The translations under genes were made by a program, and so were the position numbers. This document shows positions 1,242-55,927 of a stretch of 61,259 bases of DNA, one piece after another (within the stretch, counting starts at the first letter, position 1; the number at the start of each line of letters is the position of its first letter). Below the pieces are notes generated by a model. It ran no database searches and had not been told where the DNA came from. It worked only from the letters and a program-made list of their open reading frames with translations. Source of the DNA: an uncultured Bacteroidales bacterium (lineage in GTDB: Bacteria > Bacteroidota > Bacteroidia > Bacteroidales > BM520); contig CAZQNY010000005.1 of the NCBI GenBank assembly GCA_964594665.1, positions 1 through 61,259 on the forward strand, in the 5' to 3' direction.

Positions 1242-1249
1242 TATATTTG
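1242..1249 (+). promoter_or_regulatory. Candidate -7 element (TATATTTG) for the polyferredoxin gene
   Basis: Exact TAnnTTTG in an AT-rich gap, 30 nt before the ATG at 1280. Confidence 0.5.
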
Positions 1250-1279: not shown

Positions 1280-3448
1280 ATGCAGGTAGACAGAAGAGAT
1301 TTTATAAGAGTAAGTTCGAAAATCGCCGTTGGTAGTGCGACGGTATCAACATTACCGGTACTTACCCAATGTACAAAGGCCGTTTTTGATGTTTATAACA
1401 TAGATCCTGATTTATGTATAGGATGCGGTGACTGCATTCCTGCGTGCTATTATAAGGCGCTGGAATTACCTGTGGAAACCCAATACACCATCGAGAAGGA
1501 GTCGTGTACAGAGTGCGGTAAATGCCGTGATGTTTGTCATGATGATGCCATTACAGTATGTGGCGTTGATTACCGGATTGATAAGGAGAAGTGTACGGAT
1601 TGTGGGCGATGTGTATCAACATGTGAGCATGATGCAATTAAAATAGCGTATGTTTATTACAATATTGACGAAGAGCTGTGCCGCGATTGTGGGAAGTGTG
1701 TGGATGTTTGTCCTGAGGATGCCATAAATATTAGTCCCGCGCTGCATAATATAATACCTGAGGCCTGCCGCGACTGCGGGCTGTGCGTCGATCGGTGTCC
1801 TGAGAATGCTATTCATGTCAGCGTTGTGGAGCATGATATAAACCGTGAAACATGCCGTGATTGTGGCGAATGTGTGCCACATTGTGAATACGGTGCCTTG
1901 AAAGTGTCGGTTGTAAACCATGCCATAAACAAGGAGCTGTGTACCGACTGTGGCGAGTGTATGCCAAAATGTGATGAGCATGCCATTAGTATTGCTGTAA
2001 AACAACATTATATCGACCGGCAGGAGTGTATTGATTGTGGTGAATGTGAAGAAAAGTGTGAAGAGAATGCCATAAATATATCTGTTATAACTCATGATAT
2101 AGACACAGATAATTGTATTGAGTGTGGATTATGCGCACCGCTATGCCCTGAAGAGGCTATTGAAATTTCCGTAAGCGATTACGATATAAACAGTAATTGT
2201 GTGGGTTGTGGCGAATGTAAGGAGGCCTGCGAAGAGGAGGGTGCTTCATGTATTTCCTGGGTGAATGGAATTAATTATTACATTGTGGGTTCAAACTGTC
2301 ATTGCGGTGGAAAGCCCTGTGTGTCGAATTGCCCGGAAAATGCTGTTACCATTGTAAATAACAAAGCCGTTATAAATCATGATTTGTGTACCCGTTGTGG
2401 AATCTGCGCCGATGTTTGTCCTAAAAGTGCTATTACTCCCTGTAAGGTTCAGATTGATCAAACCGATTGTATTCATTGTGGAGCCTGTTATGATGAATGT
2501 GAATACGATGCTGTTACCCGCCATGTTCCTCCCAATTATCATGAACCACGGATTAATACCGATAAATGTACCAACTGTAACGACTGTATAACGCTTGGTT
2601 TTTGCGATAAAGATGCTATTGTACGTACGATACCTTCCAATTACCAGGATCCGTTTATTGATATAAACAAGTGTACAAATTGCGGGGATTGCATTACAGA
2701 TAACTTTTGTGATAAGGGAGCCATAAAAGTGGAGGATCCGGTACCCTACCACGATCCGGTGATCCTTTCGGATAAATGTACCAACTGCGGTGATTGTATC
2801 GAAGACTCCTTCTGTCCGCATAATGCAATTTACAAGGATGTTCCTCAGGATTATCATGCTCCGTATATCGATAAATCGTTGTGTGTGAATTGCGATGAGT
2901 GCGTGCTCGACAATTATTGCCCCTATAGCAGTATTGAGCGAATTGTGCCTCCTGATTATAATCAGCCGTTTATTGATGAAGATGCCTGTACACAGTGTGA
3001 TGAGTGTGTGCGCGATGCATTTTGTGATTTTGATGCTATCGAAAAACAATACCCGTCGGGTTACCATGAGCCGGTCGTGGAGCTTAATAAGTGTACTAAA
3101 TGCGGTGAGTGTGTGACTTCCGAAGTGTGTGAATGGGATGCCATCAGTCGTGTGGAACCAACGGAATACCATGAGCCTTTTATCGACCAGGAGACCTGTA
3201 CCGATTGTGGAGATTGTTATAAAGCTGAGGTCTGTGAAGAGGGAGCTATTCTTAAGCTTTTGCCGGAGAATTATGTGTCACCCTTTATCGATAACGATAA
3301 ATGTACCAGTTGCGGCGACTGTTGGGGCTCTTGTGAAGATGATGCCCTGAAACGTGATCTTCATCGGGCTGTCATTGACCCGACGCTATGTATGGCCTGT
3401 GGAAAATGCGAAATCCTTTGTCCGGTAGGCGCTATTAGTGAGAAATGA
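1280..3448 (+). CDS. Tat-signal (probably lipoprotein) polyferredoxin with 22 ferredoxin-type four-Cys motifs
   Basis: N-terminal DRRDFIR twin-arginine motif and LTQC31; 14 CxxCxxCxxxC, 7 CxxCxxCxxxxxC and 1 CxCxxxxCxxxC motifs; 92 Cys in 722 aa by manual count. Confidence 0.9.
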   Translation: MQVDRRDFIRVSSKIAVGSATVSTLPVLTQCTKAVFDVYNIDPDLCIGCGDCIPACYYKALELPVETQYTIEKESCTECGKCRDVCHDDAITVCGVDYRIDKEKCTDCGRCVSTCEHDAIKIAYVYYNIDEELCRDCGKCVDVCPEDAINISPALHNIIPEACRDCGLCVDRCPENAIHVSVVEHDINRETCRDCGECVPHCEYGALKVSVVNHAINKELCTDCGECMPKCDEHAISIAVKQHYIDRQECIDCGECEEKCEENAINISVITHDIDTDNCIECGLCAPLCPEEAIEISVSDYDINSNCVGCGECKEACEEEGASCISWVNGINYYIVGSNCHCGGKPCVSNCPENAVTIVNNKAVINHDLCTRCGICADVCPKSAITPCKVQIDQTDCIHCGACYDECEYDAVTRHVPPNYHEPRINTDKCTNCNDCITLGFCDKDAIVRTIPSNYQDPFIDINKCTNCGDCITDNFCDKGAIKVEDPVPYHDPVILSDKCTNCGDCIEDSFCPHNAIYKDVPQDYHAPYIDKSLCVNCDECVLDNYCPYSSIERIVPPDYNQPFIDEDACTQCDECVRDAFCDFDAIEKQYPSGYHEPVVELNKCTKCGECVTSEVCEWDAISRVEPTEYHEPFIDQETCTDCGDCYKAEVCEEGAILKLLPENYVSPFIDNDKCTSCGDCWGSCEDDALKRDLHRAVIDPTLCMACGKCEILCPVGAISEK
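1505..2197 (+). repeat. Intragenic repeat block A: 8 units, about 29 aa (87 nt) period
   Basis: Motifs 2-9: CxxCGxCxxxC plus an 18-aa linker (17 aa in the last unit), consensus near xxxAIxVSVxxHxIxxEx. Confidence 0.85.
2468..3301 (+). repeat. Intragenic repeat block B: 8 units with 22-aa linkers, 35 aa (105 nt) period for motifs 14-20
   Basis: Motifs 13-20, linker consensus near xxDAIxRxxPxxYHxPFIDxxK; near-identical DNA gataaatgtaccaactg at about 2561 and 2771. Confidence 0.85.
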
Positions 3449-3493: not shown

Positions 3494-4840
3494 ATGAAGA
3501 ATATTTTTTTCACCGTGAGCATGCTCATTAGTGTAATGATTGTTTTTGCTCAGCAGGACACATCAGAAATACCGGATAATGTTAAAACCGGATGGACTTT
3601 TGGTGCCCTTCCGGCTATTGCCTATGATACTGATCTGGGTTTTAAATACGGGGCATTGGTAAACTTTTTTTATTATGGTGATGGCACTACTTATCCTAAG
3701 TACCTGCACAGTATTTATTATGAATTAAGCACGACAACCAAAGGCAGTACACTGAGCAAGTTTTATTATGATAGCGATCAGCTAATGAAGAATTATTATC
3801 TCCGTCTTACTGCATCTTTTAATTATATCAAAGACAGGGCTTTTGATTTTTATGGTTTTAATGGTTACAGGAGTTCGTATTATCCTGAGCTGGCAACAAC
3901 CGGTGATACGGAATATCTTTCGCGTATGTTTTATCGTCTGGAACGCAAAAGGACAAATGTAACGGTTGATTTTCAGGGCAGTATTACCAGTGAGCAGTTC
4001 AGATGGATTGCCGGTTTGGGATATTTTAGTTATAACCTGGGTTCTGTTGATATTGAGCGTTTGAATAAAGGAAAATCGGGAGGGGATTTATTGCCCTCCC
4101 AGGATACTGTTCCCGGGTTGTGGGAGAATTATTGTTCATGGGGTGTTATCCCGGAGCAAGAGCAGGAAGGGGGCTCATTCGACCTGTTTAAGCTGGGTGT
4201 TGTATACGATAGCCGGGATAATGAGGCAAACCCACAGCGAGGGGTTTGGACTGAGGCAATTTTATCCGCTTCTTCAGGTATGGTAGGTTCTTTTGGTAAG
4301 CCTTTTTCGAAATTCACCTTTACGCACCGCCAGTATTTTACCTTGTGGCCCGATCATCTTACATTTGCTTATCGTTTGGGCTATCAGCAAACACTGTCAG
4401 GGACATCACCGCATTATTTTGAGCCCTTCATGGCCAGTAGCTGGCCGGGGTCGGCATATAGTGAGGGCCTTGGAGGATCCAGAAGCCTGAGAGGCGTGAT
4501 GCGCAACCGCGTTGTGGGTAATGGAACTGGTTATGCTAATTTTGAACTCAGGTATAAAGTTTTTAAAACGGTTATTTTTAATCAAAACCTCTATATTGCG
4601 CTTACTCCGTTCCTTGATTTGGGCCGGGTTTTTGTCCCTTATGACATTGATACTGAAAATGTTCCTGCTGATGAATATAACAGGTGGTTTACTGATGAGG
4701 AAGGCTTGCATGCCGGAGCAGGAGCCGGTATTTATATAGCCCTTAATGAGAACTTTATTCTTGCCGTTAACCATGGGCGTGCATTGGATTCCCGTGATGG
4801 AACAGCAGGAACCTATATCAATATCGGATTCTTGTTTTAA
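3494..4840 (+). CDS. Omp85/BamA-TamA-family outer-membrane beta-barrel without POTRA domains
   Basis: Sec signal ending VFA/QQ; VYDSRDNEANPQRG and GLGGSRSLRG (loop-6 VRGF-like) motifs; C-terminal beta-signal YINIGFLF; barrel starts right after the signal. Confidence 0.8.
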   Translation: MKNIFFTVSMLISVMIVFAQQDTSEIPDNVKTGWTFGALPAIAYDTDLGFKYGALVNFFYYGDGTTYPKYLHSIYYELSTTTKGSTLSKFYYDSDQLMKNYYLRLTASFNYIKDRAFDFYGFNGYRSSYYPELATTGDTEYLSRMFYRLERKRTNVTVDFQGSITSEQFRWIAGLGYFSYNLGSVDIERLNKGKSGGDLLPSQDTVPGLWENYCSWGVIPEQEQEGGSFDLFKLGVVYDSRDNEANPQRGVWTEAILSASSGMVGSFGKPFSKFTFTHRQYFTLWPDHLTFAYRLGYQQTLSGTSPHYFEPFMASSWPGSAYSEGLGGSRSLRGVMRNRVVGNGTGYANFELRYKVFKTVIFNQNLYIALTPFLDLGRVFVPYDIDTENVPADEYNRWFTDEEGLHAGAGAGIYIALNENFILAVNHGRALDSRDGTAGTYINIGFLF

Positions 4841-4866: not shown

Positions 4867-5442
4867 ATGAAAATACGTAAGGCTTTTCGTTTTGAAGGAG
4901 CTCATATTGTGCGCAATTGCTCTTCGCAACGCTGTAAATATAATATCCACGGGCATTCCTATGGTGTTGAGGTTACTATTGAATCCAATCAGCTTGATAA
5001 TGGCTATATGGTTATGGATTTTATGTTACTTGATAAGGTAAAGCTGCTTGTGGATAGCTTTGATCATTCCTACAGTTTGTGGGATCGTGAATCGGATGAT
5101 TTTAAATCGTGGATCCATGCCAATACACAGCGCGTAGCCGAAATACCCATTTCTCCTTCTGCCGAAGGGTATGCACTTATGTTTTATTTTATTATTGATA
5201 AGATTTTGGAAAATACGGTTTTCCGTAATGGCGAGGGGCTCATCAGGCTGCATTCCGTTAAAGTACATGAAACAAGTACCGGTTTTGCTGAGGCCTTCAG
5301 GGAGGATCTTAATCTTGTAAAATTTACTCTTGAGGATATACAGTTTTCTTCACCTATTCATGATGAGTGGCCCTCAGACTGGTGGGGAGATTTAAAATCA
5401 GGTAAGAAATATAATAATCCGGAGGTGGAACAGAATCTGTAA
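4867..5442 (+). CDS. queD: 6-carboxy-5,6,7,8-tetrahydropterin synthase, long QueD2-like form
   Basis: FEGAHIVRNC, CKYNIHGHSY (Cx4HGH), FDHS and VHET motifs; next to queE and queF. Confidence 0.85.
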   Translation: MKIRKAFRFEGAHIVRNCSSQRCKYNIHGHSYGVEVTIESNQLDNGYMVMDFMLLDKVKLLVDSFDHSYSLWDRESDDFKSWIHANTQRVAEIPISPSAEGYALMFYFIIDKILENTVFRNGEGLIRLHSVKVHETSTGFAEAFREDLNLVKFTLEDIQFSSPIHDEWPSDWWGDLKSGKKYNNPEVEQNL

Positions 5443-6257
5443 TGCAGGGCAGTGAGAATGCCATATTGCGTTTGGCCCGGGAAGGGTTGTTCCCTGTTGT
5501 TGAGGACGGAAAGACGGCCTCTACAGGGTTGTCGGTTTCGGGCACATTGCAGGGTGAGGGTAAGCTGGCGGGAATGCCATCTCTTTTTCTTCGGCTTTTC
5601 GGCTGTAATCTTAACTGCCACTGGAGGCTGCCCGATGGAACTATCTCTCCGTGTGATACTCCTTCAGCAATTCAGTCGGGCATGCCCGTTACAAAGGTTC
5701 CGGCAGAGGATCTTGCCCGTCGTGTAGCCCAAAACCTTGGTGCCATTTCACATTTGGTTATTACCGGTGGTGAACCTGTTTTACAGGCTGACAGCCTGGT
5801 TGTTTTTCTGGATTATCTGCATCATTACAACCCTTTGGTGAAGGTAACCATGGAGACCAATGGTACACTTTTTTGTGAACCTCTTGCTCAACGGCTTAAC
5901 CTGGTAAGTATTAGTCCTAAACTTGACTCTGCTGATGCTATGGGCACAATGCACCGCGAAACAAGAATTAATACAGCTGTTTTGCAGGATTATCTTGATT
6001 ATCGAAATTCCAACCCTGCCATGGATTTGCAGCTTAAGTTTGTTATTGCTTCTGAAGAAGATGAAAAACAGGTGATCACAATTCTGGATACCCTACATGG
6101 TTATTCCGGCGATGATATTTTGTTAATGCCATTGGGCTCGGATACTGCAGAGCTTGCACAAACAACAACAACCGTTGTTGGTATGGCTATCCGCAATGGA
6201 TGGCGTTTTGCGCCCCGAATGCATATTGCCTTGTTTGGCTGTGGTGAAGGGGTATAA
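5442..6257 (+). CDS. queE: 7-carboxy-7-deazaguanine synthase (radical SAM) with expanded Cys motif
   Basis: TLQGEG, FLRLFGCNLNC...PCDT, VITGGEP, METNGT, SISPKL and LKFVI motifs; TAATG overlap with queD. Confidence 0.85.
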   Translation: MQGSENAILRLAREGLFPVVEDGKTASTGLSVSGTLQGEGKLAGMPSLFLRLFGCNLNCHWRLPDGTISPCDTPSAIQSGMPVTKVPAEDLARRVAQNLGAISHLVITGGEPVLQADSLVVFLDYLHHYNPLVKVTMETNGTLFCEPLAQRLNLVSISPKLDSADAMGTMHRETRINTAVLQDYLDYRNSNPAMDLQLKFVIASEEDEKQVITILDTLHGYSGDDILLMPLGSDTAELAQTTTTVVGMAIRNGWRFAPRMHIALFGCGEGV

Positions 6258-6268
6258 ATAATTGAATT

Positions 6269-7138
6269 ATGGAAGAAAACCTTACCCATCTGGGGCAACG
6301 TTCGGGATACCCTCAGCAGTATGACCCTTCAGTGCTGGAGCCTGTCCCGAGAAGCATTAATCGTACTGCATATGGCATCGACGACTCGACACCCGGTTTT
6401 CTGGGCTTTGATGTGTGGCATGCATGGGAAGTAAGTTTCCTCACCCGCAGGGGAATGCCTGTTGTCGGGGTGTTGAAGATTATTATCCCTCAAAGCAGTC
6501 CGTTTATTGTTGAAAGCAAGTCGTTGAAGCTATATCTTAACTCCTTTAATATGACCCGTATGGGGAATACAAAGCAGGAGGGTATTAAATTGCTTGTTGC
6601 AACGGTTCAGAATGACCTTGACAGGATCCTTGAATCCTTGCCTACAGTCGCTTTTTTCGACGGCCCTGATGAGGCAGAGAATGATTTTGTTCATTGGGAG
6701 CTTCTTGAGGAGAAGTATGATTTCTCGGATCTGGACTTTACACATTTTAATGAATCGCCGGAAGTATTGGTTGGGGACAATGGTATAAAAGCATTTCAGC
6801 TGGGCAGTCATTTATTACGTAGCAATTGCAAAGTTACGTTCCAGCCCGACTGGGGTTCGGTTTTTATAACCTTTAAGGGCGACAGGGGCCCGGCTCCGGA
6901 GGCCTTGATGCGCTATCTGGTGAGTTTCCGGAATGAGAATCATTTTCATGAAGAGGTATGTGAGATGATTTATAAACGCCTGTGGGATGCGTATCATCCT
7001 GAAGAACTGGGCGTGGCATGCCTTTACACACGCCGCGGAGGTATTGATATCTCTCCGGTCAGGGTTTCTTCTCCGGCATTGTTGCCCGATACGTTGCTTA
7101 GCCCCCGGGTACTTGGAAATAAACTCTACAGAGGTTAG
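6269..7138 (+). CDS. queF: NADPH-dependent preQ0 reductase, long two-domain form
   Basis: VESKSLKLYLNSF, LRSNCKVTFQPDWGSV (catalytic Cys/Asp), HFHEEVCE and YTRRGGIDI motifs. Confidence 0.92.
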   Translation: MEENLTHLGQRSGYPQQYDPSVLEPVPRSINRTAYGIDDSTPGFLGFDVWHAWEVSFLTRRGMPVVGVLKIIIPQSSPFIVESKSLKLYLNSFNMTRMGNTKQEGIKLLVATVQNDLDRILESLPTVAFFDGPDEAENDFVHWELLEEKYDFSDLDFTHFNESPEVLVGDNGIKAFQLGSHLLRSNCKVTFQPDWGSVFITFKGDRGPAPEALMRYLVSFRNENHFHEEVCEMIYKRLWDAYHPEELGVACLYTRRGGIDISPVRVSSPALLPDTLLSPRVLGNKLYRG

Positions 7139-20032: not shown

Positions 20033-21919
20033 TTAATCTTTCGGATTACTGATTTCAATATGTGAGAATTCAAGATCGGAATTTCCGTAATAATAGATCC
20101 TGAACTCCACATTTTCAACAGGCCGGATTGTCGTAAATGGAATCTCCAGCGGCGCTCCGGCTTCTGTTTTTGACATCTCCCGGGGAGTGAGCTTTATCGA
20201 TCCCAACACATTCTGACCATAATCGGCAACAATATCCAAAACCGCAATGGCTTTATCGCTGTCGCCTGCTTCGCATTTTGCATAAAAGCACGCCTTGTAA
20301 TGCCCGGCGGGCAACGTTATATACGGACCATATACAATGTGCTTGTATTCGAGCTCTGTGCTGTCGCGAAAAGCTGTTAGCAAACTGCTGTCAGACGATA
20401 TTTTGCATTTATCGTTGAATTTTAAATCCTTTAATGTCAGGGTAGTATCAAAAGGCAGCAACTCATATCGGCAAACATTGCAGTCGCCGATATTGAACTC
20501 CTCTCCGGCCTTAATCAGCGTGTTTCCGAATTGTTCTATTTGTTCAGGGAACGTTTCAAGCCACATATCTTTGATAAGATATAGGTTGGGCTGCATAAAT
20601 ACGCTGTCCACCAGAGCGGGGTTTCTGACTTCGCATTTATCGTGAGGCGTGGCTTTGATATTTTCAGGATCGACAAATGAGGAGCCATACGAATTCCAGT
20701 ATTCGCTGATAATACCAATTTTACCAAGCTCCCTGAATTCCCCAACAACCTGCGCCTTTGGTGTCAGACGCTTGGGATACACATATTTATAACCATATGG
20801 AATACTGCCTGCGCCAATGATTACAGTGAGGATGGCTAAACCAATAAGGATCTTCCGTGGCCGTTTATACTGAATCGCTTCAAGCATCATCAGATTTGCC
20901 AGCCATACAACAATGTAAACACTGACAAAATACCTGCGTGCAACACCATTAAGATACGACCAATGCGAAAGAATATTAATAAACAGAAAAGCCAGACCGT
21001 CGAGGAGAAATACCAACGCCCAGCGCCAGGAAACTTTTTTTGCACTCCCGGAAATAAACAGTGTTGCGGGAATGGCGATAAGAAGGACTACAACAAGATA
21101 GTTGTAAATCAGTAGCAGCGGGTTGGCATGATTGGGATGAAAGCCTTTTGCAATATTTCCTCCAAGAATCTTCAGACTTCCAAGTATCTCATCAGGTTTG
21201 TTTAGTAACTGTTTGTTGTATTCATAAAAATCGCTTACAACAGCAGCATTTTTCAATAATAAAATGATGATGCCACCGCAAATTATTGCAGCTGTGATAG
21301 TTATTGCAGTGGGCAAATGAATTTTTCTTTGTTGCTTTAAATGATAAAAAAGGGCTGTACCTATGATAATGGCAATGGTAACAAAGGCTGTTTCAGTAAC
21401 CCAGACTGCTGCTGTAAAGGCCAGGAACACCGGAAGGATTTCCCGGATAACGGGCCAGACACCTGATGGGGCTTTTTTCTCAAAACGAGTGATAAAGTAT
21501 AAACCAATTGCCAGTAAACTGTAATGTAAACCCAGAGAATAACGGGTAAGGCCTAAAAATGGCGAAACAGGTAGAAACCAGATAACCGCAAAAATGAGTT
21601 TTGTGCTTTTTTTATTCAGAAAGGTGGAAAACGCGAAGTAACCCAACAGTAAAAGCAGGTAGTGCGTTATGGATTCTGACCAGAGATGATTTATGTGAAA
21701 CAGCTTGTAGGGGATCTGCCCCAGCAAGGGTACAATTGATCCCACCCTGTCCTGTCCCCAGAAATAGAGATCGCGGGGAAGGGAAAAATCGTGCAACATC
21801 AGTAATATTATGCCATCATCAGCATTTAGTAAAGGATAAAAAACGGAAGAGTACATTAACCACGAGATAATAATTATGACAAGCAATATCAGATAATGCA
21901 AAATGGTTTTTCTCTTCAT
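20033..21919 (-). CDS. Multi-pass membrane protein, putative GT-C-fold glycosyltransferase with C-terminal beta-sandwich domain
   Basis: TM1 followed by LNADDG...YFWGQDRVGS, about 11-12 TM segments, soluble tail with YGPYITLPAGHYKACF; start moved to MKRKT at 21919. Confidence 0.5.
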   Translation of the reverse strand: MKRKTILHYLILLVIIIISWLMYSSVFYPLLNADDGIILLMLHDFSLPRDLYFWGQDRVGSIVPLLGQIPYKLFHINHLWSESITHYLLLLLGYFAFSTFLNKKSTKLIFAVIWFLPVSPFLGLTRYSLGLHYSLLAIGLYFITRFEKKAPSGVWPVIREILPVFLAFTAAVWVTETAFVTIAIIIGTALFYHLKQQRKIHLPTAITITAAIICGGIIILLLKNAAVVSDFYEYNKQLLNKPDEILGSLKILGGNIAKGFHPNHANPLLLIYNYLVVVLLIAIPATLFISGSAKKVSWRWALVFLLDGLAFLFINILSHWSYLNGVARRYFVSVYIVVWLANLMMLEAIQYKRPRKILIGLAILTVIIGAGSIPYGYKYVYPKRLTPKAQVVGEFRELGKIGIISEYWNSYGSSFVDPENIKATPHDKCEVRNPALVDSVFMQPNLYLIKDMWLETFPEQIEQFGNTLIKAGEEFNIGDCNVCRYELLPFDTTLTLKDLKFNDKCKISSDSSLLTAFRDSTELEYKHIVYGPYITLPAGHYKACFYAKCEAGDSDKAIAVLDIVADYGQNVLGSIKLTPREMSKTEAGAPLEIPFTTIRPVENVEFRIYYYGNSDLEFSHIEISNPKD

Positions 21920-21982
21920 CAGAATAATGATTATTGGTGTTGTAAATATGTTGTAAGCAAATGTATTGATTTTGTCGGGCAT

Positions 21983-22009
21983 AAAAAAACCGGCAGGAAT
22001 GCTGCCGGG
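21983..22009 (-). terminator. Intrinsic terminator after the RRM gene
   Basis: ccggcag/ctgccgg stem, followed by T7 on the minus strand. Confidence 0.8.
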
Positions 22010-22028
22010 TATAAAAAGTATTTCGTTT

Positions 22029-22415
22029 TTAATAACGATCTGATCTGTTGTTGTCGCGGTAGTTGTTTCTTCCACCACCGCGATGATCATCGTTGCGACG
22101 ATAATTGTCGTTTTTGCGGAATCCGCCACCGCCACCCTGACGATAACCACCGCCGCCACCGCCGCGATTATCTTCACGTGGACGAGCTTTTTTAACAATA
22201 ACTGTACTTCCCTCAAAATCTGTTTCGTTGAGTTGATCAATGGCTGCAGATGCTTCATCATCATTATCCATTTCAACAAAACCGTACTTTTTTGAATAAC
22301 CGGTCTCCCGATCCATAATTACCCTGGCACTTTTTACTTCGCCAAAGGGTTCAAATAAAGCTCTCAGGCTGTCATCGTTTGTTCCGGAGCTCAATTTTGC
22401 AATAAAAATGTTCAT
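22029..22415 (-). CDS. RRM-domain RNA-binding protein with Gly/Arg/Asp-rich tail
   Basis: RNP2 NIFIAKL, RNP1 KKYGFVEM, then VKKARPRE and a low-complexity tail. Confidence 0.93.
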   Translation of the reverse strand: MNIFIAKLSSGTNDDSLRALFEPFGEVKSARVIMDRETGYSKKYGFVEMDNDDEASAAIDQLNETDFEGSTVIVKKARPREDNRGGGGGGYRQGGGGGFRKNDNYRRNDDHRGGGRNNYRDNNRSDRY

Positions 22416-40919: not shown

Positions 40920-41774
40920 CTAGAATTCCCAGAAATCATGTTCGTACTGATGAATTTCATTATTTATGCGTTCTGATTCAAGCAGGGCGTCAATTCCGGT
41001 AGCATATTCAGAAATGTATCGGTCGAAACGATTGGACTCCTTGTAAACAGTACTATGGAAAATGCGTTTCCAGAAAACATCATCATACGTAAGCTTTTGG
41101 GCGTCGTTCTGAGGGTTGTAAACTTCAGCTTTTGCAAAAGTTTCGCGTGCTTCAGGATAATAGATCCAGAAAGTGGGAGCATAACCACGGAAGTTGCCAT
41201 CCTGATCAAGGTTATCGCGAACAGGGCAGATACCCAGAACACGGGCTTCCATTACAGAGCGTTGCTTGTCAAAGAACCAGTCTTCCTTTATACGAATACG
41301 TTTTACATCCATCGCATTAAATTCTGAATGGATAATGGTATCATAGTAATCGTAAGGAGGATAGCTGCGCTGTAGCGTCATGGTATCTGTTCGTGCCAAT
41401 CGGCTCATAATTTCCTCATAGGTTATGGGTACCTCAAATTCATCTGTAGGCATTGAAGCATCATAGGCAGTTATCTGACCTTCTCTGAGGCCGTCCATGA
41501 TAACTGTCATAAGGCTTCTCCACTTATTTTGGGGTACTTCAGGGTAGTAGAAAGGCTGGTTTACACGCTCGCGCATATCAATAACACGCCATACACGTTT
41601 CGACCAGATCATATCAGCTTCGCGAACATAAACGTAAGGAATAGGTCTCTTGTCAACAAGATTAACTTTGTCGTAGACTCCATCGCGGGGAGTACTCACT
41701 ACCTGTGCATTGAGCGACATGGCACCGGCGATGGTGAGGCTTAAAAGAGTAACTATTGCAACAAATTTTTTCAT
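40920..41774 (-). CDS. gldN: T9SS/gliding protein GldN (PorN)
   Basis: READMIWSKRVWRVID, IKEDWFFDKQRS and FWIYYPEAR motifs; operon position. Confidence 0.93.
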   Translation of the reverse strand: MKKFVAIVTLLSLTIAGAMSLNAQVVSTPRDGVYDKVNLVDKRPIPYVYVREADMIWSKRVWRVIDMRERVNQPFYYPEVPQNKWRSLMTVIMDGLREGQITAYDASMPTDEFEVPITYEEIMSRLARTDTMTLQRSYPPYDYYDTIIHSEFNAMDVKRIRIKEDWFFDKQRSVMEARVLGICPVRDNLDQDGNFRGYAPTFWIYYPEARETFAKAEVYNPQNDAQKLTYDDVFWKRIFHSTVYKESNRFDRYISEYATGIDALLESERINNEIHQYEHDFWEF

Positions 41775-41789
41775 ATATATTACCTCCGG

Positions 41790-43403
41790 TTATTTTATTG
41801 TCAGGTTAATAGCATTTAGTTTTCGTGAGGATCCGTCAGGGCCTTTGGCATAGATATTTTCCAGCCAGATTTTGTCGTCCCGGCGTGAATTACGGATTCT
41901 TGAGAGCATATCTTCAGAAAGGCGGTTACCGCTTCCCTGCAGTGTGATAAGGTCACCGTTACGCTGACGGGCTACGAAGTCAAATTTTGTGATTTCGAAG
42001 TTTAACTCAAATTCAAAATCTTCAGGCATTTGAGGAATAATTGCTCCGGCAGTAACAAGAAGGTTCTTGTTGATTTTACCGCCATCACTACCACCAATTT
42101 TAGCTACCGGATTGGGAACCCTCTTAATACGGAAGTCTGCAGTTCCCATTTCAACCATATTGCCATCCTGCTCTGCAGTAACACTGATGGTAGTAGTACC
42201 TGTAGCATCGTCAGGGAGTGTAACAATCCATTCCCCGGTTTCAGCGTTCATTTTCAGTGTTCCCACACTAATGGAAGCCTGAAGCATATCACTGCCAATA
42301 CCTGGTGAAGAGATAGATACAGGGTTGTCAACACCTTTGTAGAAAACGTTCATTTTTGTTGGCGCTACCGTTAATGACGGCTTGGCAACAATGTATGAAT
42401 CGTTAAATGGATATGTGTTGATTTCTCCTGAAGGTCCTTTTACTTCAATAACACCGGCATAGGAATGAATTCCTTCTTCGTTGGCAGGGAAACGGAGTTT
42501 TACTTTTCCGCTGTCGCCGGGAAGAACTGTTGCATTTGCATACATATCATCTGTGAGCTGACTAACACCTTTCATAACACGAACGGTAGGAGCCTGTTTA
42601 CTATCGTATGCAGCAACGAGTACCTCAGCTTCATATTCTCCGTTAAGGAAAATATAGTTACTTGTGGGAATAACTTTGGCATCAATATCATCAAACTTAA
42701 AGTCTTCTGCACTGATATTGTTCAAAAAATAATTCAATACACCGAATTCAGCATTTTGAACATCCATAATAAGTTTGTTAAGGAAAGTTACATCAGCAGC
42801 AAGAATAGTGTGGTAGAAGTGATGCATTTCCCAGGTTTGTGGTTTTCCGTCGGCATCGTGGTATTTGCCATCAGTTTCCAGTCCCAGGTTAATGTTAATA
42901 TCTTCTTTGCCATCAAAGAGAGCCATCATATTGGCTTTATACTCATTGATTTTGTTTTTTAGTTCACCTGCTTTTCCTTTGGTTCCGTCAGGAGACGATC
43001 CGATGAAGAAATTTGTAGGTTCGTCGTAGCTATCTCTGTTGCCAATTTCAGCGAGTTTTAAACCTTTAATTTCATCAACGGTTTTTTTCTCTGTTAGCGC
43101 AGTGACATCATTTTTCAGGTTTTCAATGTAGGTAATCATTTCCTCGGAGAGCTGATTTGCCTGTTTGGCTTTTTCCCAGGAAGGACCTACTTTGGCCTGG
43201 TTAATCATATATTGTTGTTCAAACTGGGCATAGATGTTTTGAATTTTATCTTCAAACGTCTTATTGGTTTGTTCAACGCTGTCGTTCACGATAACAAAAG
43301 CTTCAAGGATTTCCACTGATACGTTCAGGGCCAGCATAGCCGTGAGTACCAGGTACATCATCCCGATCATCTTTTGCCGTGGGGTTTCTTTATATCCAGC
43401 CAT
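41790..43403 (-). CDS. gldM: T9SS/gliding motor protein GldM (PorM)
   Basis: ETPRQKMIGMMYLVLTAMLALNVS and MNVFYKGVDNPVSIS motifs. Confidence 0.95.
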   Translation of the reverse strand: MAGYKETPRQKMIGMMYLVLTAMLALNVSVEILEAFVIVNDSVEQTNKTFEDKIQNIYAQFEQQYMINQAKVGPSWEKAKQANQLSEEMITYIENLKNDVTALTEKKTVDEIKGLKLAEIGNRDSYDEPTNFFIGSSPDGTKGKAGELKNKINEYKANMMALFDGKEDININLGLETDGKYHDADGKPQTWEMHHFYHTILAADVTFLNKLIMDVQNAEFGVLNYFLNNISAEDFKFDDIDAKVIPTSNYIFLNGEYEAEVLVAAYDSKQAPTVRVMKGVSQLTDDMYANATVLPGDSGKVKLRFPANEEGIHSYAGVIEVKGPSGEINTYPFNDSYIVAKPSLTVAPTKMNVFYKGVDNPVSISSPGIGSDMLQASISVGTLKMNAETGEWIVTLPDDATGTTTISVTAEQDGNMVEMGTADFRIKRVPNPVAKIGGSDGGKINKNLLVTAGAIIPQMPEDFEFELNFEITKFDFVARQRNGDLITLQGSGNRLSEDMLSRIRNSRRDDKIWLENIYAKGPDGSSRKLNAINLTIK

Positions 43404-43450
43404 TTATAATGAGCTTTATTTTGTTTTTAAATGGGTTAATTGAACTGTAA

Positions 43451-44362
43451 CTACTTAACTTTTACATTCATGGCAGAAAGCATATTGCCATAAACAGTAT
43501 TGAGAGCTGCCACGTTCTGCGTAAGTGCGTCAGCCTGCTTTTTATAGTTTTCAGTTGTAGCGATTGATTCCTTCATGTTTTTCATAAAGGCTTCAATGGC
43601 TGTACCCATTTGACCGGTAACTTTGGATTGTGCATCTGAATTTTTCAGCTGCATTTCGTATACTGCATTGAGTGCTGCCAGATTCTGAGTTAGTTTCTGG
43701 AAGGTTTCATCGTATGCTTTATTTTCTGACGTCACTGCTTTGGCTGCACTTGAATAAGTTTCAGAGAGTTTACCTGCTGCAGTAGCTGCACTTTGAACAT
43801 TTTGCAGGAAGGCTTCGGTTCCGGCGAGGTCCTTGTTCATGGTTTCAGCTGTTTTTACATAGGTGTCAGAGAGTTTATCTGCTGATGAGGAAGCTGTCTC
43901 CATACTTTTGGCAAACTTGTCACTTGCTACCTTAGCTTTTGAAATATCAGATAACGCATTCGTTGTTTCGCTAAGGTTTGTAAGTCCTTTTCCTAAATCT
44001 TCAATAAGCTTGGAATCGATTTTTGCTTTTTTGAGCATTTCATCGAGTTCATTTGTAGGAGAACCACCTCTTTGAACAGCTCCACCTTTTGGCATGCCCT
44101 TTTTGTCTGATTTTTTACCATACATACCTGCAAGTTCAGGATACACCAGGCTCCAGTCGGGTTCAACGTGTGGCGGCTCGAATGCCGAGAAGAAAAAGAT
44201 AATTGCTTCGGTCAACATCCCCGCAAAAAGCATTTCGTTGGCACCGGGAATATGTGTAATTTTAAACAGTGCCCCTACAATAACAACCGATGCACCGATA
44301 CCATATAGCTTGGCCATAAAATTCTTGAAGAACCTGCTCTGAACAATCTTATTTAATCCCAT
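43451..44362 (-). CDS. gldL: T9SS/gliding motor protein GldL (PorL)
   Basis: YGIGASVVIVGALFK, TEAIIFFFSAFEP, PDWSLVYPEL and LNTVYGNMLSAM motifs. Confidence 0.95.
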   Translation of the reverse strand: MGLNKIVQSRFFKNFMAKLYGIGASVVIVGALFKITHIPGANEMLFAGMLTEAIIFFFSAFEPPHVEPDWSLVYPELAGMYGKKSDKKGMPKGGAVQRGGSPTNELDEMLKKAKIDSKLIEDLGKGLTNLSETTNALSDISKAKVASDKFAKSMETASSSADKLSDTYVKTAETMNKDLAGTEAFLQNVQSAATAAGKLSETYSSAAKAVTSENKAYDETFQKLTQNLAALNAVYEMQLKNSDAQSKVTGQMGTAIEAFMKNMKESIATTENYKKQADALTQNVAALNTVYGNMLSAMNVKVK

Positions 44363-44417
44363 AATGTAATAACTTAACTATAATTAATGTTTGTGATTTT
44401 TTTCGTTATTCTGATTT

Positions 44418-45779
44418 TTATTTGTAAACTTTCGATGCTTTTGAAGGGTTGTCGCCTTTTTGGCGTCCGAGATAATTTTGCACACAACGGAAGCCTACAT
44501 AGCATTTTGCTGTATCCTGATATTCATAAGATCTGGAAGCAACTTCAAGATAATAATGAACATCTTTCCATGATCCACCACGTGTAACTTTACGCTTCAG
44601 TGCCACAGGGTCGTCTTCTTTGGCATTGTAGGTATAGCTCATGTTCATATCCCAGGCAAAATTGTATGTTGACTCATCGTAAGCGTCTTCCGTCCATTCT
44701 GCAACGTTACCGGCCATATCGTAAAGGCCAAAGTCGTTGGAAGGATAGTGGCCAACAATCACAGTGTAAGCACCGCCGTCGTCGGCATAGTCTCCACGCA
44801 TAGGTTTGAAGTTGGCAAGGAAACAACCATTTTCATTACGTGTGTAAGGGCCACCCCATGGGTAAGGGCTCAGCTCATAACCTCCGCGTGCTGCCCATTC
44901 CCATTCTGCTTCAGTGGGAAGACGGAATTCGTTAACAATAACCTCGTCGTTTTTACTCAGATAGGAGTTAAGGTATTCTGTTCTCCAGATACAAAAAGCT
45001 TTAGCCTGTTTCCAGTTCACGCCAACAACAGGGTAGTTGTCGTAGGCAGGATGCCAGAAGTAGCGTTTTGTCATAGGCTCGTTGTAAGAGTAGCTGTAAT
45101 CGTGGATCCAGCAAAGGGTATCAGGATACACGTTGATAGTTTCTTTACGAACATAAACCGAGCGGTCGGTGCGTCCCTGACGACGATTTGCGAAAGCTGC
45201 GTTTTTACTTACTGCATCGGGATCAGCATAGTTTTTGCGTGCAGCAGCCTGCAGGTCAATCCAGTAATATTCATAAAAAAGCTTACGGGTATCGATTTCT
45301 TTTTTACGGAAGAAGCGCTCATGCTCCGGAAGATACATCTCTTCAAGGATATCTCTTTCCTCTTCACCGTTCCAATCGATTTCTGTTTCCCAGTTAAGTA
45401 CGGGTGTATCGTAAACTTCTCCTGTTTCTTCGTTTTCTTCAATAAGAAACTCTTCCGGATTGAGGTCTCCCAGCAGAGTTCTTGCGATGGAATCACGCAC
45501 CCAGAATACGAACTGACGATATTCATTGTTGGTGATTTCAGTTTCATCCATATAAAATGCCGAAATTGTAATCACACGGGGCTGATTGATGCGTGCATAA
45601 GGAACATCCTGGTCACCACCGCCCATCGTAAAACTCCCCATAGGTACATAAGTCATTCCAAAGGGATCTGGTTGGTAGAATTCTCCATTTCTTTTCACGC
45701 CTGTGAGTTCACCATTCCCTGAGTTGCTACAGCTGGCAAGCATGATGAGAACGAATGAATACAAGAATAATTTTTTCAT
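44418..45779 (-). CDS. gldK: T9SS/gliding lipoprotein GldK (PorK)
   Basis: LASC lipobox; ETEITNNEYRQFV, YPVVGVNW, RLPTEAEWE and RGGSWKD (FGE-sulfatase fold). Confidence 0.95.
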   Translation of the reverse strand: MKKLFLYSFVLIMLASCSNSGNGELTGVKRNGEFYQPDPFGMTYVPMGSFTMGGGDQDVPYARINQPRVITISAFYMDETEITNNEYRQFVFWVRDSIARTLLGDLNPEEFLIEENEETGEVYDTPVLNWETEIDWNGEEERDILEEMYLPEHERFFRKKEIDTRKLFYEYYWIDLQAAARKNYADPDAVSKNAAFANRRQGRTDRSVYVRKETINVYPDTLCWIHDYSYSYNEPMTKRYFWHPAYDNYPVVGVNWKQAKAFCIWRTEYLNSYLSKNDEVIVNEFRLPTEAEWEWAARGGYELSPYPWGGPYTRNENGCFLANFKPMRGDYADDGGAYTVIVGHYPSNDFGLYDMAGNVAEWTEDAYDESTYNFAWDMNMSYTYNAKEDDPVALKRKVTRGGSWKDVHYYLEVASRSYEYQDTAKCYVGFRCVQNYLGRQKGDNPSKASKVYK

Positions 45780-45841
45780 TTTTTACTGTTTTATTCAGAA
45801 TAACGTTTTACTTTCTTAAAAATTATGTTTTATGGCATTGA

Positions 45842-46810
45842 TTATAAATACCTTGTATTACGAAGTGTTCGTAATCCCCGGTCAAATTCAAATTTAAAAC
45901 AATAGCCCAACATTACTTCGTGGCTGCCCATACTACCTCCAATACTTACTTTTGAGGTGGAAATATCGTATGAGTATCCAAGTTTAAAATCTTTCCACCA
46001 CAAACCGAATAATAGTCCAAGCCCGTCACCAAAGCGATAATTTACGCCACCCCAGAATTTGTCACGGTATTTTACAAGCCCGTTGAAATCAACCTGTACA
46101 CCTGACAAATCTGTTTTCATAACAAACGATGGCTCCACTTTAATAAAAGGCCTTGTGGGGAAACTAAACTGATAACCGCCGGCAAGAAAAAAGGTTCTTC
46201 CCAGCTGATACAGTGTGTTTCTACCTGTGGATTGTATTATATTTTGTGCGGAAATTCCAAACCAGTATTCATTGGGTACCTGATAATATACGCCCAGGTT
46301 GGCATCAAAGATCATATCGCTCTCCTCACCATTACGTTGAATAAGTACAGGATCTTCAGAATTGATGGCATCAAACTGGCCAAAGTCCAGGATGCTGTTA
46401 AAAAACATTGCCTGAACCCCAATGCCAAGATCACCGACACCGACGGTTGTGTGATAGGAATACCCCAGATCAACGTTGGTTTGTTTAAAGAAACCAATTT
46501 GATCCTGCATGATGTTTATCCCGGCACCGCCATGGAGTACTTTTACAGGCATATCAATGGAGAAAGAATAGGTTTTGGGGCCAATGTTTTCTCCTGAACT
46601 GTTTTCTGTTCCCTGGCTAACAAAACCTACCCATTGTTGACGCATTATTCCGGTAGCACATATTGCACTGCGCATACCGGCATAGCCCGGATTATAATGC
46701 AGTTTACTGAACATTTGCTGGGTGAACTGTGGCTCCTGTTGTGCCACGGCCTGCCCTACAATACTCAGTAACAGAATGATTGCTACAACTCTTGAAATGC
46801 GTGTTAACAT
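45842..46810 (-). CDS. porP: T9SS PorP/SprF family beta-barrel
   Basis: QQEPQFTQQMF...YNPGYAG, RQQWVGF and GYSYD...GSHEVMLGY; upstream of gldK. Confidence 0.9.
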   Translation of the reverse strand: MLTRISRVVAIILLLSIVGQAVAQQEPQFTQQMFSKLHYNPGYAGMRSAICATGIMRQQWVGFVSQGTENSSGENIGPKTYSFSIDMPVKVLHGGAGINIMQDQIGFFKQTNVDLGYSYHTTVGVGDLGIGVQAMFFNSILDFGQFDAINSEDPVLIQRNGEESDMIFDANLGVYYQVPNEYWFGISAQNIIQSTGRNTLYQLGRTFFLAGGYQFSFPTRPFIKVEPSFVMKTDLSGVQVDFNGLVKYRDKFWGGVNYRFGDGLGLLFGLWWKDFKLGYSYDISTSKVSIGGSMGSHEVMLGYCFKFEFDRGLRTLRNTRYL

Positions 46811-54857: not shown

Positions 54858-55286
54858 ATGCCTCAAATAATTTATATTACTCGCCGGGAGCGTTTTAATG
54901 GCGCTCATCGGTTGTTTCGCGCCGATTGGAGTGACGAAAAAAACCTGGAGGTCTTTGGGAAATGTTCCAACCCCCACTGGCATGGCCATAATTATACGCT
55001 ATTCGTTACAGTAAAAGGACCAATGGATCCTGAAACGGGATTTTTGGTGAACCTTAAAGATCTGAGCCGCATTATTAAGGAGGAGGTTATTGAAAAACTG
55101 GATCATAAAAACCTGAATGTGGAAGTGGACTTCCTGAAAGATACTATTATATCTTCCGAGAATATCGCCATTGCCATCTGGAATCAGCTGGCACCTCTTG
55201 TTAAGGATATTGGTGCCACACTGCATTGCGTTAAGCTTGTGGAAACAGAAAATAATTATGTTGAATATTTTGGAGAATTAGTATGA
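54858..55286 (+). CDS. 6-pyruvoyl tetrahydropterin synthase family protein (Cx5HGH type)
   Basis: [33 protein letters not shown] and ETENN motifs. Confidence 0.88.
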
Positions 55287-55927
55287 AAGAGATAAAGGAA
55301 AGTATGCTCAGAGATAACTGCCTCGACAGCGACAGTTATGAAAAAATTGACTGTTATAATATGGATGTTGTTAATCAAATGGCAGTCCATTATCATGAGA
55401 TCCTGAAGCTTATCGGTGAAGATCCTCAGCGTGAGGGCCTGGTGAAAACTCCTGAACGTGTGGCCAAAGCAATGCAGTTTCTTACACATGGTTACGGATT
55501 AAAGCCTCAGGAAATTCTGCTCTCTGCGCGCTTTAAAGAAGATTACCGCCAAATGGTTCTTGTAAAGGATATTGAAATCTATTCATTGTGTGAGCATCAT
55601 ATGATACCTTTTGTTGGTAAAGCACATGTTGCTTATATCCCCAATGGTTATATTGTCGGGCTCAGTAAAATACCCCGTGTTGTGGATGCCTTTGCCCGCA
55701 GATTACAGGTTCAGGAACGACTTACAACACAGATAAAGGATTGTATTGTAAAAACGCTTAACCCCCTTGGAGTGGCCGTGGTTATTGAAGCTCAGCACAT
55801 GTGTATGTCTATGCGTGGTGTTCAAAAACAAAATTCTGTAACAACAACCTCTGATTTTACTGGTGCTTTCCTGCGCGAGGCAACCCGAGAGGAATTTATT
55901 CATCTTATTGGGACTAAATTGCACTAG
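55283..55927 (+). CDS. folE: GTP cyclohydrolase I
   Basis: [37 protein letters not shown] and HMCMSMRGV motifs. Confidence 0.97.

What the first reader, a model, noticed from the sequence alone, without database searches (positions are those of the whole stretch)
1280..3448. Tat-signal polyferredoxin with 22 putative [4Fe-4S] sites: a candidate periplasmic Fe-S wire
Seen: 22 four-Cys ferredoxin motifs from aa 46 to 714, no catalytic domain, and DRRDFIR at the N-terminus. Established: well-studied polyferredoxins such as methanogen MvhB (12 clusters) and FwdF (8 clusters) are smaller and cytoplasmic. Tat exports folded, cofactor-loaded proteins. Clusters in such chains sit about 1-1.2 nm apart. 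Inference: an exported protein made only of clusters could carry electrons over roughly 10-25 nm, a job normally done by multiheme cytochromes.
Basis: partly seen in the sequence, partly recalled or inferred. Interest (0 to 1): 0.92.

Follow-up and report, generated by a model that had tools for sequence, protein, structure and literature searches.

The report
Exported 22-cluster iron-sulfur wire protein
This Bacteroidota gene encodes a protein made only of 22 iron-sulfur cluster sites behind an export signal; it is the longest member of an undescribed family that probably carries electrons across the space between the two cell membranes, a job usually done by haem proteins.

Summary
ORF 1280..3448 (+) encodes 722 aa with 92 Cys, arranged as 21 CxxCxxCx3-5C motifs plus one conserved variant. 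That gives 22 sites between aa 46 and 714. Only Fer4 domains are found, and there is no haem motif.

The RRxF motif and a Cys about 25 residues after it are invariant in 23 aligned homologues.

The protein is not unique. It is the longest member of a small family in Bacteroidota and Zixibacteria that carries 4 to 22 sites, always an even number.

In 11 sequence-verified loci outside the window lineage, the gene directly follows a probable outer-membrane barrel and sits with a small lipoprotein-like protein. In 9 of those 11 there is also a NapH-like membrane Fe-S protein. That layout suggests an envelope electron conduit without haem.

The window lineage lacks these partners within 61 kb. It sits instead between a GSCFA gene and a common Omp85-family gene.

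Tat-exported Fe-S proteins such as NapG are already known, so export itself is not new. The size, the anchor and the partner genes are. All evidence is computational.

The parts
1242..1249 (+). TATATTTG, a match to the Bacteroidetes-type -7 promoter element TAnnTTTG, 31 nt upstream of the ATG
   Evidence: Read directly from the sequence. The consensus is from my own knowledge of Bacteroides promoters. This is a motif match only.
1280..1372 (+). Signal region, aa 1-31: MQVD-RRDFIR, a weakly hydrophobic h-region, then VLTQ-C31. This is a twin-arginine signal ending in a lipobox-like Cys.
   Evidence: R5, R6, F8 and C31 are invariant in 23 family members. TIGR01409 is the only NCBIfam hit: 13.8 bits here, and 17.6-22.4 bits in four relatives. 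Mean Kyte-Doolittle hydropathy of aa 10-30 is 0.63, and no 19-aa window reaches 1.6. Residue -1 is Q (K in L084), where other members have G, A or S.
1415..2197 (+). Motifs 1-9 (aa 46-306): CxxCGxCxxxC units at a 28-30 residue period. This is expansion zone 1.
   Evidence: In alignment A3 the short family members keep only motif 1 plus one or two units of this zone. The rest is present only in the 12- to 22-site members.
2198..2566 (+). Conserved family core (aa 307-429): motif 10, variant motif 11 (CxCx4Cx3CP), motif 12 (CxRCGxCxxxCP) and motif 13
   Evidence: The core alignment of 19 sequences has 16 motif Cys invariant or nearly so. AlphaFold pLDDT is 85-95 over aa 310-470. Foldseek matches clostridial 2[4Fe-4S] ferredoxin 1fdn with TM 0.82 and rmsd 1.5 A.
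2567..3301 (+). Motifs 14-20 (aa 430-674): seven 35-residue units of the form CxxCxxCx5C...P..Y(H).P.ID. This is expansion zone 2.
   Evidence: Unit number varies between family members. There is no DNA-level tandem repeat, so the duplications are old.
3302..3448 (+). Terminal motif pair 21-22 (aa 675-722) and the stop codon. This pair is conserved at the C-terminus of all full-length members.
   Evidence: Alignment A3 has C704, C707 and C710 invariant and C714 nearly invariant.
3494..4840 (+). Neighbouring Omp85-family outer-membrane barrel (448 aa), 45 bp downstream with no terminator-like site between. It is probably co-transcribed. A functional link is not supported.
   Evidence: NCBIfam NF047779 E 1e-93, 315 bits against a cut-off of 200. 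There are more than 4600 homologues, mostly named as Bacteroidales or Bacteroidota. Two homologues at 50-57% identity have no polyferredoxin next to them. It is not homologous to the barrel-like partner F4 of relatives. No terminator-like site was called between the two genes.

Best explanation
The gene encodes a folded, cluster-loaded polyferredoxin. It is exported by the Tat pathway and held at a membrane by its N-terminus. Across the family the anchor is a lipid-modified Cys. In the window protein it could instead be an uncleaved signal. The mature protein is about 77 kDa, very acidic (pI 4.3), and built as 11 tandem two-cluster ferredoxin domains. It has no catalytic site.

Its job is to pass electrons stepwise from cluster to cluster through the periplasm.

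In the family's usual gene cluster, the likely input is a NapH-like inner-membrane Fe-S protein, analogous to NapH feeding NapG. The likely far end is a ~430-aa outer-membrane barrel and a ~127-aa Cys/His lipoprotein-like protein. The final acceptor or donor is unknown.

Shown by computation: the motifs, the purifying selection, the conserved signal, the family and its synteny.

Inferred: Fe-S loading, Tat export, lipidation, the direction of electron flow, the span, and that the window copy uses partners encoded elsewhere in its genome.
For: - There are 22 four-Cys sites and only Fer4 domains.
- All 92 Cys are kept at 77% identity, with dS saturated and dN 0.16.
- Confidently modelled parts adopt the 2[4Fe-4S] ferredoxin fold.
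- The 8-site relative P0040 models at pLDDT 86.7 and pTM 0.71, and its best fold match is polyferredoxin FwdF at E 1.5e-8.
- R5, R6, F8 and C31 are invariant in 23 members.
- TIGR01409 is the only signal-type hit for all 8 N-termini tested.
- tatA lies next to the gene in L003.
- Site numbers are 4, 8, 10, 12, 16, 20 or 22. The regex gives odd counts for four members; each has one irregular or truncated motif visible in its sequence, which makes the count even. This fits insertion of whole two-cluster domains.
- In 11 sequence-verified loci outside the window lineage, the gene follows F4 and sits with F1. F3, the NapH/MauN/NosR-like protein, is present in 9 of the 11. A twelfth contig has an unverified 449-aa gene directly upstream.
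- F4 has only a signal peptide, no transmembrane helix, 13-15% aromatic residues and a C-terminal Phe.
- Fused NapH-like / Tat-signal / polyferredoxin proteins exist (P0025 and P0028). This class has been shown to be Tat-dependent (PMC5449189).
Against: - The window has no F1, F3 or F4 homologue in 61 kb, and no redox enzyme either.
- The window's Tat-signal score is below the model cut-off.
- Its lipobox has Q at -1.
- No locus contains a catalytic subunit, so the endpoint is unknown.
- The family's length varies about fivefold, which is odd for a device that must span a fixed gap.
- One near-identical strain carries a stop codon at the Cys49 codon.
- Nothing here is experimental.
Confidence: 0.6

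Rival explanations
1. It is the electron-transfer subunit of a periplasmic redox or metal-handling system that never reaches the outer membrane. One model is NapG passing quinol-derived electrons to a soluble reductase. Another is the FtrABCD-type iron uptake system, where a NapH-like membrane polyferredoxin (FtrD) exchanges electrons with periplasmic metal-binding proteins.
For: - The NapH-like partner in relatives.
- An F1 paralogue plus an ArsP_1 permease downstream in three lineages. The permease hits the SO_0444 Cu/Zn-efflux and SaoE models weakly.
- F1 has conserved Cys and His residues.
- FtrABCD combines an outer-membrane protein, a small periplasmic protein, a permease and a membrane polyferredoxin (PMC7415376).
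Against: No reductase, cupredoxin or P19-like gene is present in any locus. F1 has no Pfam, NCBIfam or PDB relative. Such systems use 4 or fewer periplasmic clusters, and 8-22 would be unexplained.
Confidence: 0.22
2. It is a periplasmic electron store or redox buffer (a capacitor). It could instead be an oxygen or oxidant sink that protects an anaerobe, rather than a directional wire.
For: There are 22 one-electron sites and no catalytic domain. The window copy stands apart from any input or output partner. Site number varies between lineages.
Against: The tight synteny with membrane and barrel partners in relatives is not needed for a buffer. The strict even-number domain architecture and conserved end modules suggest defined docking ends.
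Confidence: 0.1
3. It is an ordinary cytoplasmic polyferredoxin whose N-terminal RR stretch is not a working signal. Alternatively it is a decaying orphan gene in this lineage.
For: The window's TIGR01409 score is below the cut-off. The lipobox is atypical. The partner genes are lost from the neighbourhood. A close strain carries a nonsense codon.
Against: RR, F and the lipobox Cys are invariant across 23 members. All 92 Cys and the full length are kept at 72-79% identity in three other metagenomes. There are no mvh, fwd or hdr genes nearby.
Confidence: 0.05
4. It is a Cys-rich metal-binding or metal-sulfide-binding protein (Zn, Fe or Cu sequestration) rather than a redox protein.
For: 12.7% Cys and a net charge of about -79.
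Against: The Cys spacing and flanking residues are those of 4Fe-4S ferredoxins (Fer4 E 7e-86). The predicted fold matches 2[4Fe-4S] ferredoxin.
Confidence: 0.03

Closest known systems
NapG/NapH quinol dehydrogenase, with its relatives MauM/MauN and NosG/NosH
   Same: A Tat-exported, cluster-only periplasmic ferredoxin is paired with a polytopic Fer4_5 membrane Fe-S protein. In relatives of the window gene, such a NapH-like gene lies two genes upstream (PMC5449189).
   Different: NapG has 4 clusters and is not a lipoprotein. This family has 4-22 sites, a lipobox Cys, and barrel-like and small-lipoprotein partners. No NapG model appears among the 25 NCBIfam hits shown for each query. No nap, mau or nos catalytic genes are nearby. 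The window copy has no NapH-like neighbour.
Polytopic Sec/Tat polyferredoxin (MLMS-1 PFD), a NapH-NapG fusion
   Same: A NapH-like membrane part is followed by an internal RR signal and an exported polyferredoxin. P0025 and P0028 found here have that layout. Tat dependence was shown experimentally for this class (PMC5449189).
   Different: In that class everything is one fused polypeptide with few exported clusters. Here the proteins are separate, the signal is N-terminal, there is a lipobox, and there are up to 22 sites.
Archaeal polyferredoxins MvhB (12 clusters) and FwdF/FmdF (8 clusters)
   Same: Tandem 2[4Fe-4S] ferredoxin domains with no other domain, acting as intramolecular wires. These are the best PDB matches by sequence (MvhB 9sw6_G E 7e-19; FwdF) and by fold (5t61/5t5m FwdF) (PMC13580503).
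   Different: Those proteins are cytoplasmic, have no signal peptide, and are subunits of hydrogenase/Hdr/Fmd complexes. NCBIfam scores are far below their cut-offs (VhuB 116 against 600; FwdF 133 against 375). Global TM-score to FwdF is only about 0.2, so the domain arrangement differs.
Porin-cytochrome conduits (MtrCAB, PioAB/MtoAB, Geobacter Pcc)
   Same: Working analogy only: a periplasmic multi-cofactor protein encoded next to an outer-membrane barrel, giving a route for electrons across the envelope. Knowledge of these systems is my own.
   Different: The cofactors are [4Fe-4S] clusters, not c-type haems, and there is no CxxCH motif. F4 has no detectable relation to any known barrel family. 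No docking has been shown.
FtrABCD iron uptake system (FtrD membrane polyferredoxin)
   Same: A NapH-like membrane polyferredoxin is encoded with an outer-membrane protein, a small periplasmic protein and a permease (PMC7415376). This resembles F3, F4, F1 and the ArsP_1 permease in relatives.
   Different: FtrABCD has no exported soluble polyferredoxin. F1 is not detectably P19-like, and the permease family differs.

Membership tests
2[4Fe-4S] ferredoxin domain (Pfam Fer4 clan) | Paired CxxCxxCxxxC(P) motifs about 30 residues apart | tested here: met
   21 canonical or extended motifs plus 1 conserved variant. Fer4 E 7e-86, Fer4_7 E 3e-64, Fer4_21 E 1e-58.
2[4Fe-4S] ferredoxin domain (Pfam Fer4 clan) | (beta-alpha-beta)2 ferredoxin fold | tested here: met
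   Confident model segments match 1fdn (TM 0.82, rmsd 1.5 A). Only aa ~90-130 and 310-470 are modelled confidently.
2[4Fe-4S] ferredoxin domain (Pfam Fer4 clan) | Actual binding of [4Fe-4S] clusters | not testable with these tools
   Needs Fe/S analysis, UV-vis and EPR.
Methanogen-type polyferredoxin (MvhB/VhuB, FwdF) | Many tandem ferredoxin motifs and no other domain | tested here: met
Methanogen-type polyferredoxin (MvhB/VhuB, FwdF) | Scores above the family model cut-off; cytoplasmic; encoded with mvh, hdr or fwd genes | tested here: not met
   VhuB 116 bits against 600. FwdF 133 bits against 375. An N-terminal RR signal is present. Neighbours are GSCFA, Omp85 and queDEF.
Tat substrate | Twin-arginine motif (S/T-R-R-x-F-L-K) followed by a weakly hydrophobic h-region | tested here: met
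   D-R-R-D-F-I-R at aa 4-10. R5, R6 and F8 are invariant in 23 members. The h-region is weakly hydrophobic.
Tat substrate | Score above the TIGR01409 cut-off | tested here: inconclusive
   Window 13.8 bits against a cut-off of 16.7. Four of 7 relatives score 17.6-22.4 bits.
Tat substrate | Export that depends on RR and TatABC | not testable with these tools
   Needs an RR-to-KK mutant, a tat mutant and fractionation.
Bacterial lipoprotein | Lipobox [LVI][ASTVI][GAS]-C at the end of the signal | tested here: inconclusive
   Cys31 is invariant in the family and relatives have G, A or S at -1. The window has VLTQ-C and its close relative has VLTK-C.
NapG/MauM ferredoxin-type protein | Match to the NapG/MauM model; four clusters; adjacent napH-like gene | tested here: not met
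   No NapG model is among the 25 NCBIfam hits listed for the full protein, the N-terminal 132 aa, or the 8-site relative. Only the best 25 of 55-67 hits were listed. There are 22 sites. No NapH-like gene exists in the window, although relatives have one.
Porin-cytochrome electron conduit | Multihaem (CxxCH) periplasmic protein encoded next to its outer-membrane barrel | tested here: not met
   Zero CxxCH motifs. The adjacent barrel in the window is a common Omp85-family gene, and neither of the two more distant homologues examined has a polyferredoxin beside it. Relatives have a different barrel-like neighbour, F4. The resemblance is functional analogy only.

The most novel reading that the evidence does not exclude
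The family is a haem-free, iron-sulfur counterpart of porin-cytochrome conduits. A NapH-like inner-membrane protein feeds a lipid-anchored polyferredoxin of adjustable length (8-22 clusters). That polyferredoxin reaches, and perhaps enters, a dedicated outer-membrane barrel (F4), handing electrons to a small Cys/His lipoprotein or to an external substrate. The 22-cluster window protein would then be long enough, up to about 25 nm if extended, to bridge the whole periplasm on its own.
Probability: 0.3. Interest if true: 0.92.

Novelty: new variant of a known kind. Interest (0 to 1): 0.77.

Why it matters
Long-range electron transfer outside the cytoplasm is currently attributed to multihaem cytochromes, flavins or conductive fibres. 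The exported Fe-S proteins known to me have about four clusters.

A conserved, exported, membrane-anchored family with up to 22 [4Fe-4S] sites would be a second chemical solution to wiring the cell envelope. Its partners, a NapH-like protein and an undescribed outer-membrane barrel, add to that picture. The phyla involved, Bacteroidota and Zixibacteria, are not known for extracellular electron transfer and are common in anoxic sediments and digesters.

The find also defines two unannotated partner families, F1 and F4. Because the four-gene cluster is present in a cultured strain, Mangrovibacterium lignilyticum BM_7, the idea can be tested directly.

Tried and rejected
- The word-indexed homologue searches were swamped by generic ferredoxins. 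They returned only ~29%-identity methanogen polyferredoxins or a few fragments. The exhaustive representative search found the real family.
- Alignment A1 was too diverse for a locus search. The smaller alignment A2 worked.
F4 could therefore not be modelled, and the expansion zones of the 722-aa model stayed at low confidence.
- I tested whether the window's Omp85-family neighbour stands in for F4. There is no similarity by BLASTP or hhalign (probability 0.5%). The Omp85 gene is a common Bacteroidales gene found in other contexts. I rejected it as evidence of a functional pair.
- I searched the whole window for F1, F3 and F4 by tblastn. Nothing was found apart from Fer4-motif hits inside the gene itself.
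- I looked for tatA near all family loci. It is present only in L003.
- No NapG, VhuB or FwdF model reached its cut-off.
- There is no tandem DNA repeat, so recent duplication is rejected.
- GC and GC3 match the neighbouring genes, so there is no compositional sign of recent transfer.
- Cluster look-ups gave no names.
- Text searches for exported, periplasmic or outer-membrane polyferredoxins, and for the sample accessions, found nothing.
- F1 and F4 profiles have no PDB relatives.
Full report
**Observation.** The ORF at 1280..3448 (+) is real. It starts at the first possible ATG and encodes 722 aa. It has 92 Cys. A regex finds 21 CxxCxxCx3-6C motifs, and a further four-Cys motif, C340-x-C-x4-C-x3-CP, brings the total to 22 sites between aa 46 and 714. 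Spacing is very regular: 28-30 residues for motifs 1-10 and 35 residues for motifs 13-21. Pfam reports only 4Fe-4S families (Fer4 E 7e-86) and NCBIfam only generic ferredoxin-type hits. There is no CxxCH motif, and the mature protein is about 77 kDa with pI 4.3. DRRDFIR is at aa 4-10.

**Is it a functional gene?** Three metagenome contigs carry homologues at 72-79% identity, and the one complete copy (L084) has the same length and motif count. Against L084, all 92 Cys are conserved, non-Cys identity is 74%, dN is 0.16 and dS is saturated. GC and GC3 match the neighbouring genes. There is no DNA-level tandem repeat, so the internal duplications are old. A Bacteroidetes-type -7 element (TATATTTG) lies 31 nt upstream. 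The window is from a Bacteroidota genome: gldK, gldL, gldM and gldN plus porP/sprF lie at 40.9-46.8 kb.

**The signal.** An exhaustive search of 1.8 billion representative proteins found a small family of 16 proteins at E <= 1e-30. The best hit has 49% identity. Nearly every homologue with an intact N-terminus has RRxF[IL][KR], followed about 20-25 residues later by a Cys preceded by a small residue. In a 23-sequence alignment, R5, R6, F8 and C31 are invariant. The Tat-signal model TIGR01409 is the only signal-type hit for all eight N-termini tested. It is above its cut-off in four relatives and below it for the window (13.8 bits against 16.7). The h-region is only weakly hydrophobic. One relative has tatA immediately downstream. 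The family therefore looks like Tat-exported lipoproteins. In the window lineage the residue before the Cys is Q or K rather than G, A or S, so lipidation of this particular protein is uncertain.

**Architecture of the family.** Alignment A3 shows a fixed scaffold: the signal, motif 1, a conserved core (window aa ~279-442, including the variant motif) and a terminal motif pair. Two zones take up extra units. One holds 29-residue units before the core, and the other holds 35-residue CxxCxxCx5C units after it. Site numbers are 4, 8, 10, 12, 16, 20 and 22. The regex gives odd counts for four members; each has one irregular or truncated motif visible in its sequence, which makes the count even. 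This is as expected if whole two-cluster domains are added. The window protein and its close relatives are the longest. A Zixibacteria MAG has 20 sites and two Bacteroidota MAGs have 16.

**Structure.** AlphaFold on the 722-aa protein gave mean pLDDT 55.6. Values were 85-95 where the alignment is deep (aa ~90-130 and 310-470) and low in the expansion zones, where only the window row exists. The confident parts match clostridial 2[4Fe-4S] ferredoxin (TM 0.82) and FwdF. The 8-site relative P0040 models well (pLDDT 86.7, pTM 0.71). It matches FwdF locally (E 1.5e-8) but not globally (TM about 0.2), so the modules are standard but their arrangement is not that of any solved polyferredoxin. By sequence, the nearest solved chains are MvhB, FwdF and RnfB. 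No coordinates were available, so the 10-25 nm span remains an estimate. With about 1.2 nm between neighbouring clusters (established for these domains), 25 nm is an upper bound for a straight chain.

**Gene neighbourhood.** This is the most informative result.
- Outside the window lineage I examined 11 loci with sequence: L003-L011, L168/L169 counted as one, and L170. They come from Bacteroidota, Zixibacteria and unclassified MAGs.
- In all 11, the polyferredoxin gene directly follows F4, a ~420-470-aa protein, and sits with F1, a ~127-aa protein.
- In 9 of the 11 (8 if the near-identical L008 and L009 count as one), F3 lies between F1 and F4. F3 is absent from L168/L169. The contig end leaves F1 unseen in L006.
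- A twelfth contig, carrying P0042, has an unverified 449-aa gene directly upstream.
- F3 is a NapH/MauN/NosR-like polytopic Fer4_5 protein with a C-terminal dicluster domain.
- F4 has a signal peptide, no transmembrane helix, 13-15% aromatic residues, two invariant Cys and a C-terminal ...R-x-x-F. These features fit an outer-membrane barrel. It has no Pfam, NCBIfam or PDB relative.
- F1 has a lipobox-like A-C-E and conserved THRxC and RxCDKEGGFG segments, and likewise has no known relative.
- Three lineages add an F1 paralogue and an ArsP_1 permease downstream. In Mangrovibacterium and Sunxiuqinia the nqr genes lie just upstream, judged by reading the sequences.
- Flanking genes otherwise vary, so the four genes look like a self-contained module.
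- Fused NapH-like / RR-signal / polyferredoxin proteins (P0025, P0028) link the two Fe-S parts functionally. That class and the NapGH pair are described in PMC5449189.

**The window differs.** tblastn finds no F1, F3 or F4 in 61 kb, and the rest of the window is housekeeping. The gene sits between a GSCFA gene and a 448-aa Omp85-family gene, followed by queD, queE and queF. That order is kept in the close relatives. The Omp85 gene is 45 bp downstream and probably co-transcribed. However, it belongs to a very common Bacteroidales family with more than 4600 hits. The two more distant members I examined have other neighbours, and the family is unrelated to F4. I therefore do not count it as a partner. 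Whether the partners lie elsewhere in this genome could not be tested.

**Interpretation.** The best-supported reading is an exported, membrane-anchored, cluster-only electron carrier. It works like an extended NapG fed by a NapH-like protein, and in its usual context it has an outer-membrane barrel and a small Cys/His protein at the other end. Fe-S loading, export, lipidation, direction of flow and span are all inferred.

The rival readings are:
- a purely periplasmic redox or metal-handling role, with the FtrABCD system and its membrane polyferredoxin FtrD as an analogue (PMC7415376);
- an electron store or oxidant sink;
- a non-exported or decaying gene;
- simple metal binding.

The conserved signal, the purifying selection and the ferredoxin-type motifs argue against the last two.

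**Comparison and novelty.** What appears undescribed is a lipobox-bearing family with 8-22 sites, its modular even-number growth, and its fixed association with a NapH-like protein and two unannotated envelope proteins. Full-text searches for exported, periplasmic or outer-membrane polyferredoxins found nothing relevant. I rate it a new variant of a known kind. There is a substantial chance that the family as a whole is a new type of envelope conduit.

Noticed in passing
L164:1213-3384 (ENA ERZ18242372 NODE_2544): A strain 97% identical in DNA to relative L084 has TGA in place of the Cys49 codon (CIG*GDC). The gene is therefore called as 48 aa plus 659 aa. This could be a sequencing error, a strain-level pseudogene or, less likely, recoding.
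   Followed up: partly
L003-L011, L168, L170 (e.g. L011:6617-7003 and L011:8302-9585): Two undescribed protein families always accompany the polyferredoxin in relatives. F1 is ~127 aa, lipoprotein-like, with ACE...THRxC...RxCDKEGGFG. F4 is ~430 aa, probably an outer-membrane barrel, with two invariant Cys. Neither has a Pfam, NCBIfam or PDB relative.
   Followed up: partly
L010:7561-8959, L011:10616-12039, L170:6527-7907: In three lineages an F1 paralogue and an ArsP_1-family permease follow the polyferredoxin gene. The permease gives weak hits to the SO_0444 Cu/Zn-efflux and SaoE models. This hints at a metal- or sulfur-related role.
   Followed up: no
window 2291-3172 (-) and 1616-2095 (-): Long antisense ORFs of 293 and 159 aa lie inside the polyferredoxin gene. 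I take them to be a by-product of the Cys/Asp/Glu-rich repeat coding (my inference), not genes.
   Followed up: no
window 40920-46810 (-): gldN, gldM, gldL, gldK (FGE-sulfatase type) and porP/sprF form the type IX secretion and gliding core. This places the window in Bacteroidota.
   Followed up: yes
window 4867-7138 (+) and 55283-55927 (+): queD, queE and queF lie directly downstream of the Omp85-family gene, and folE (GTP cyclohydrolase I) lies 48 kb away. Together these are preQ1/queuosine precursor genes.
   Followed up: no
window 20033-22279 (-): A 748-aa ORF has no Pfam family and no exact record in the gene-position collection.
   Followed up: no
window 3494-4840 (+): A POTRA-less Omp85-family barrel with a weak DUF5982 N-terminal match is very widespread in Bacteroidales at about 50% identity. 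Its cellular role is not stated by any source seen here.
   Followed up: partly
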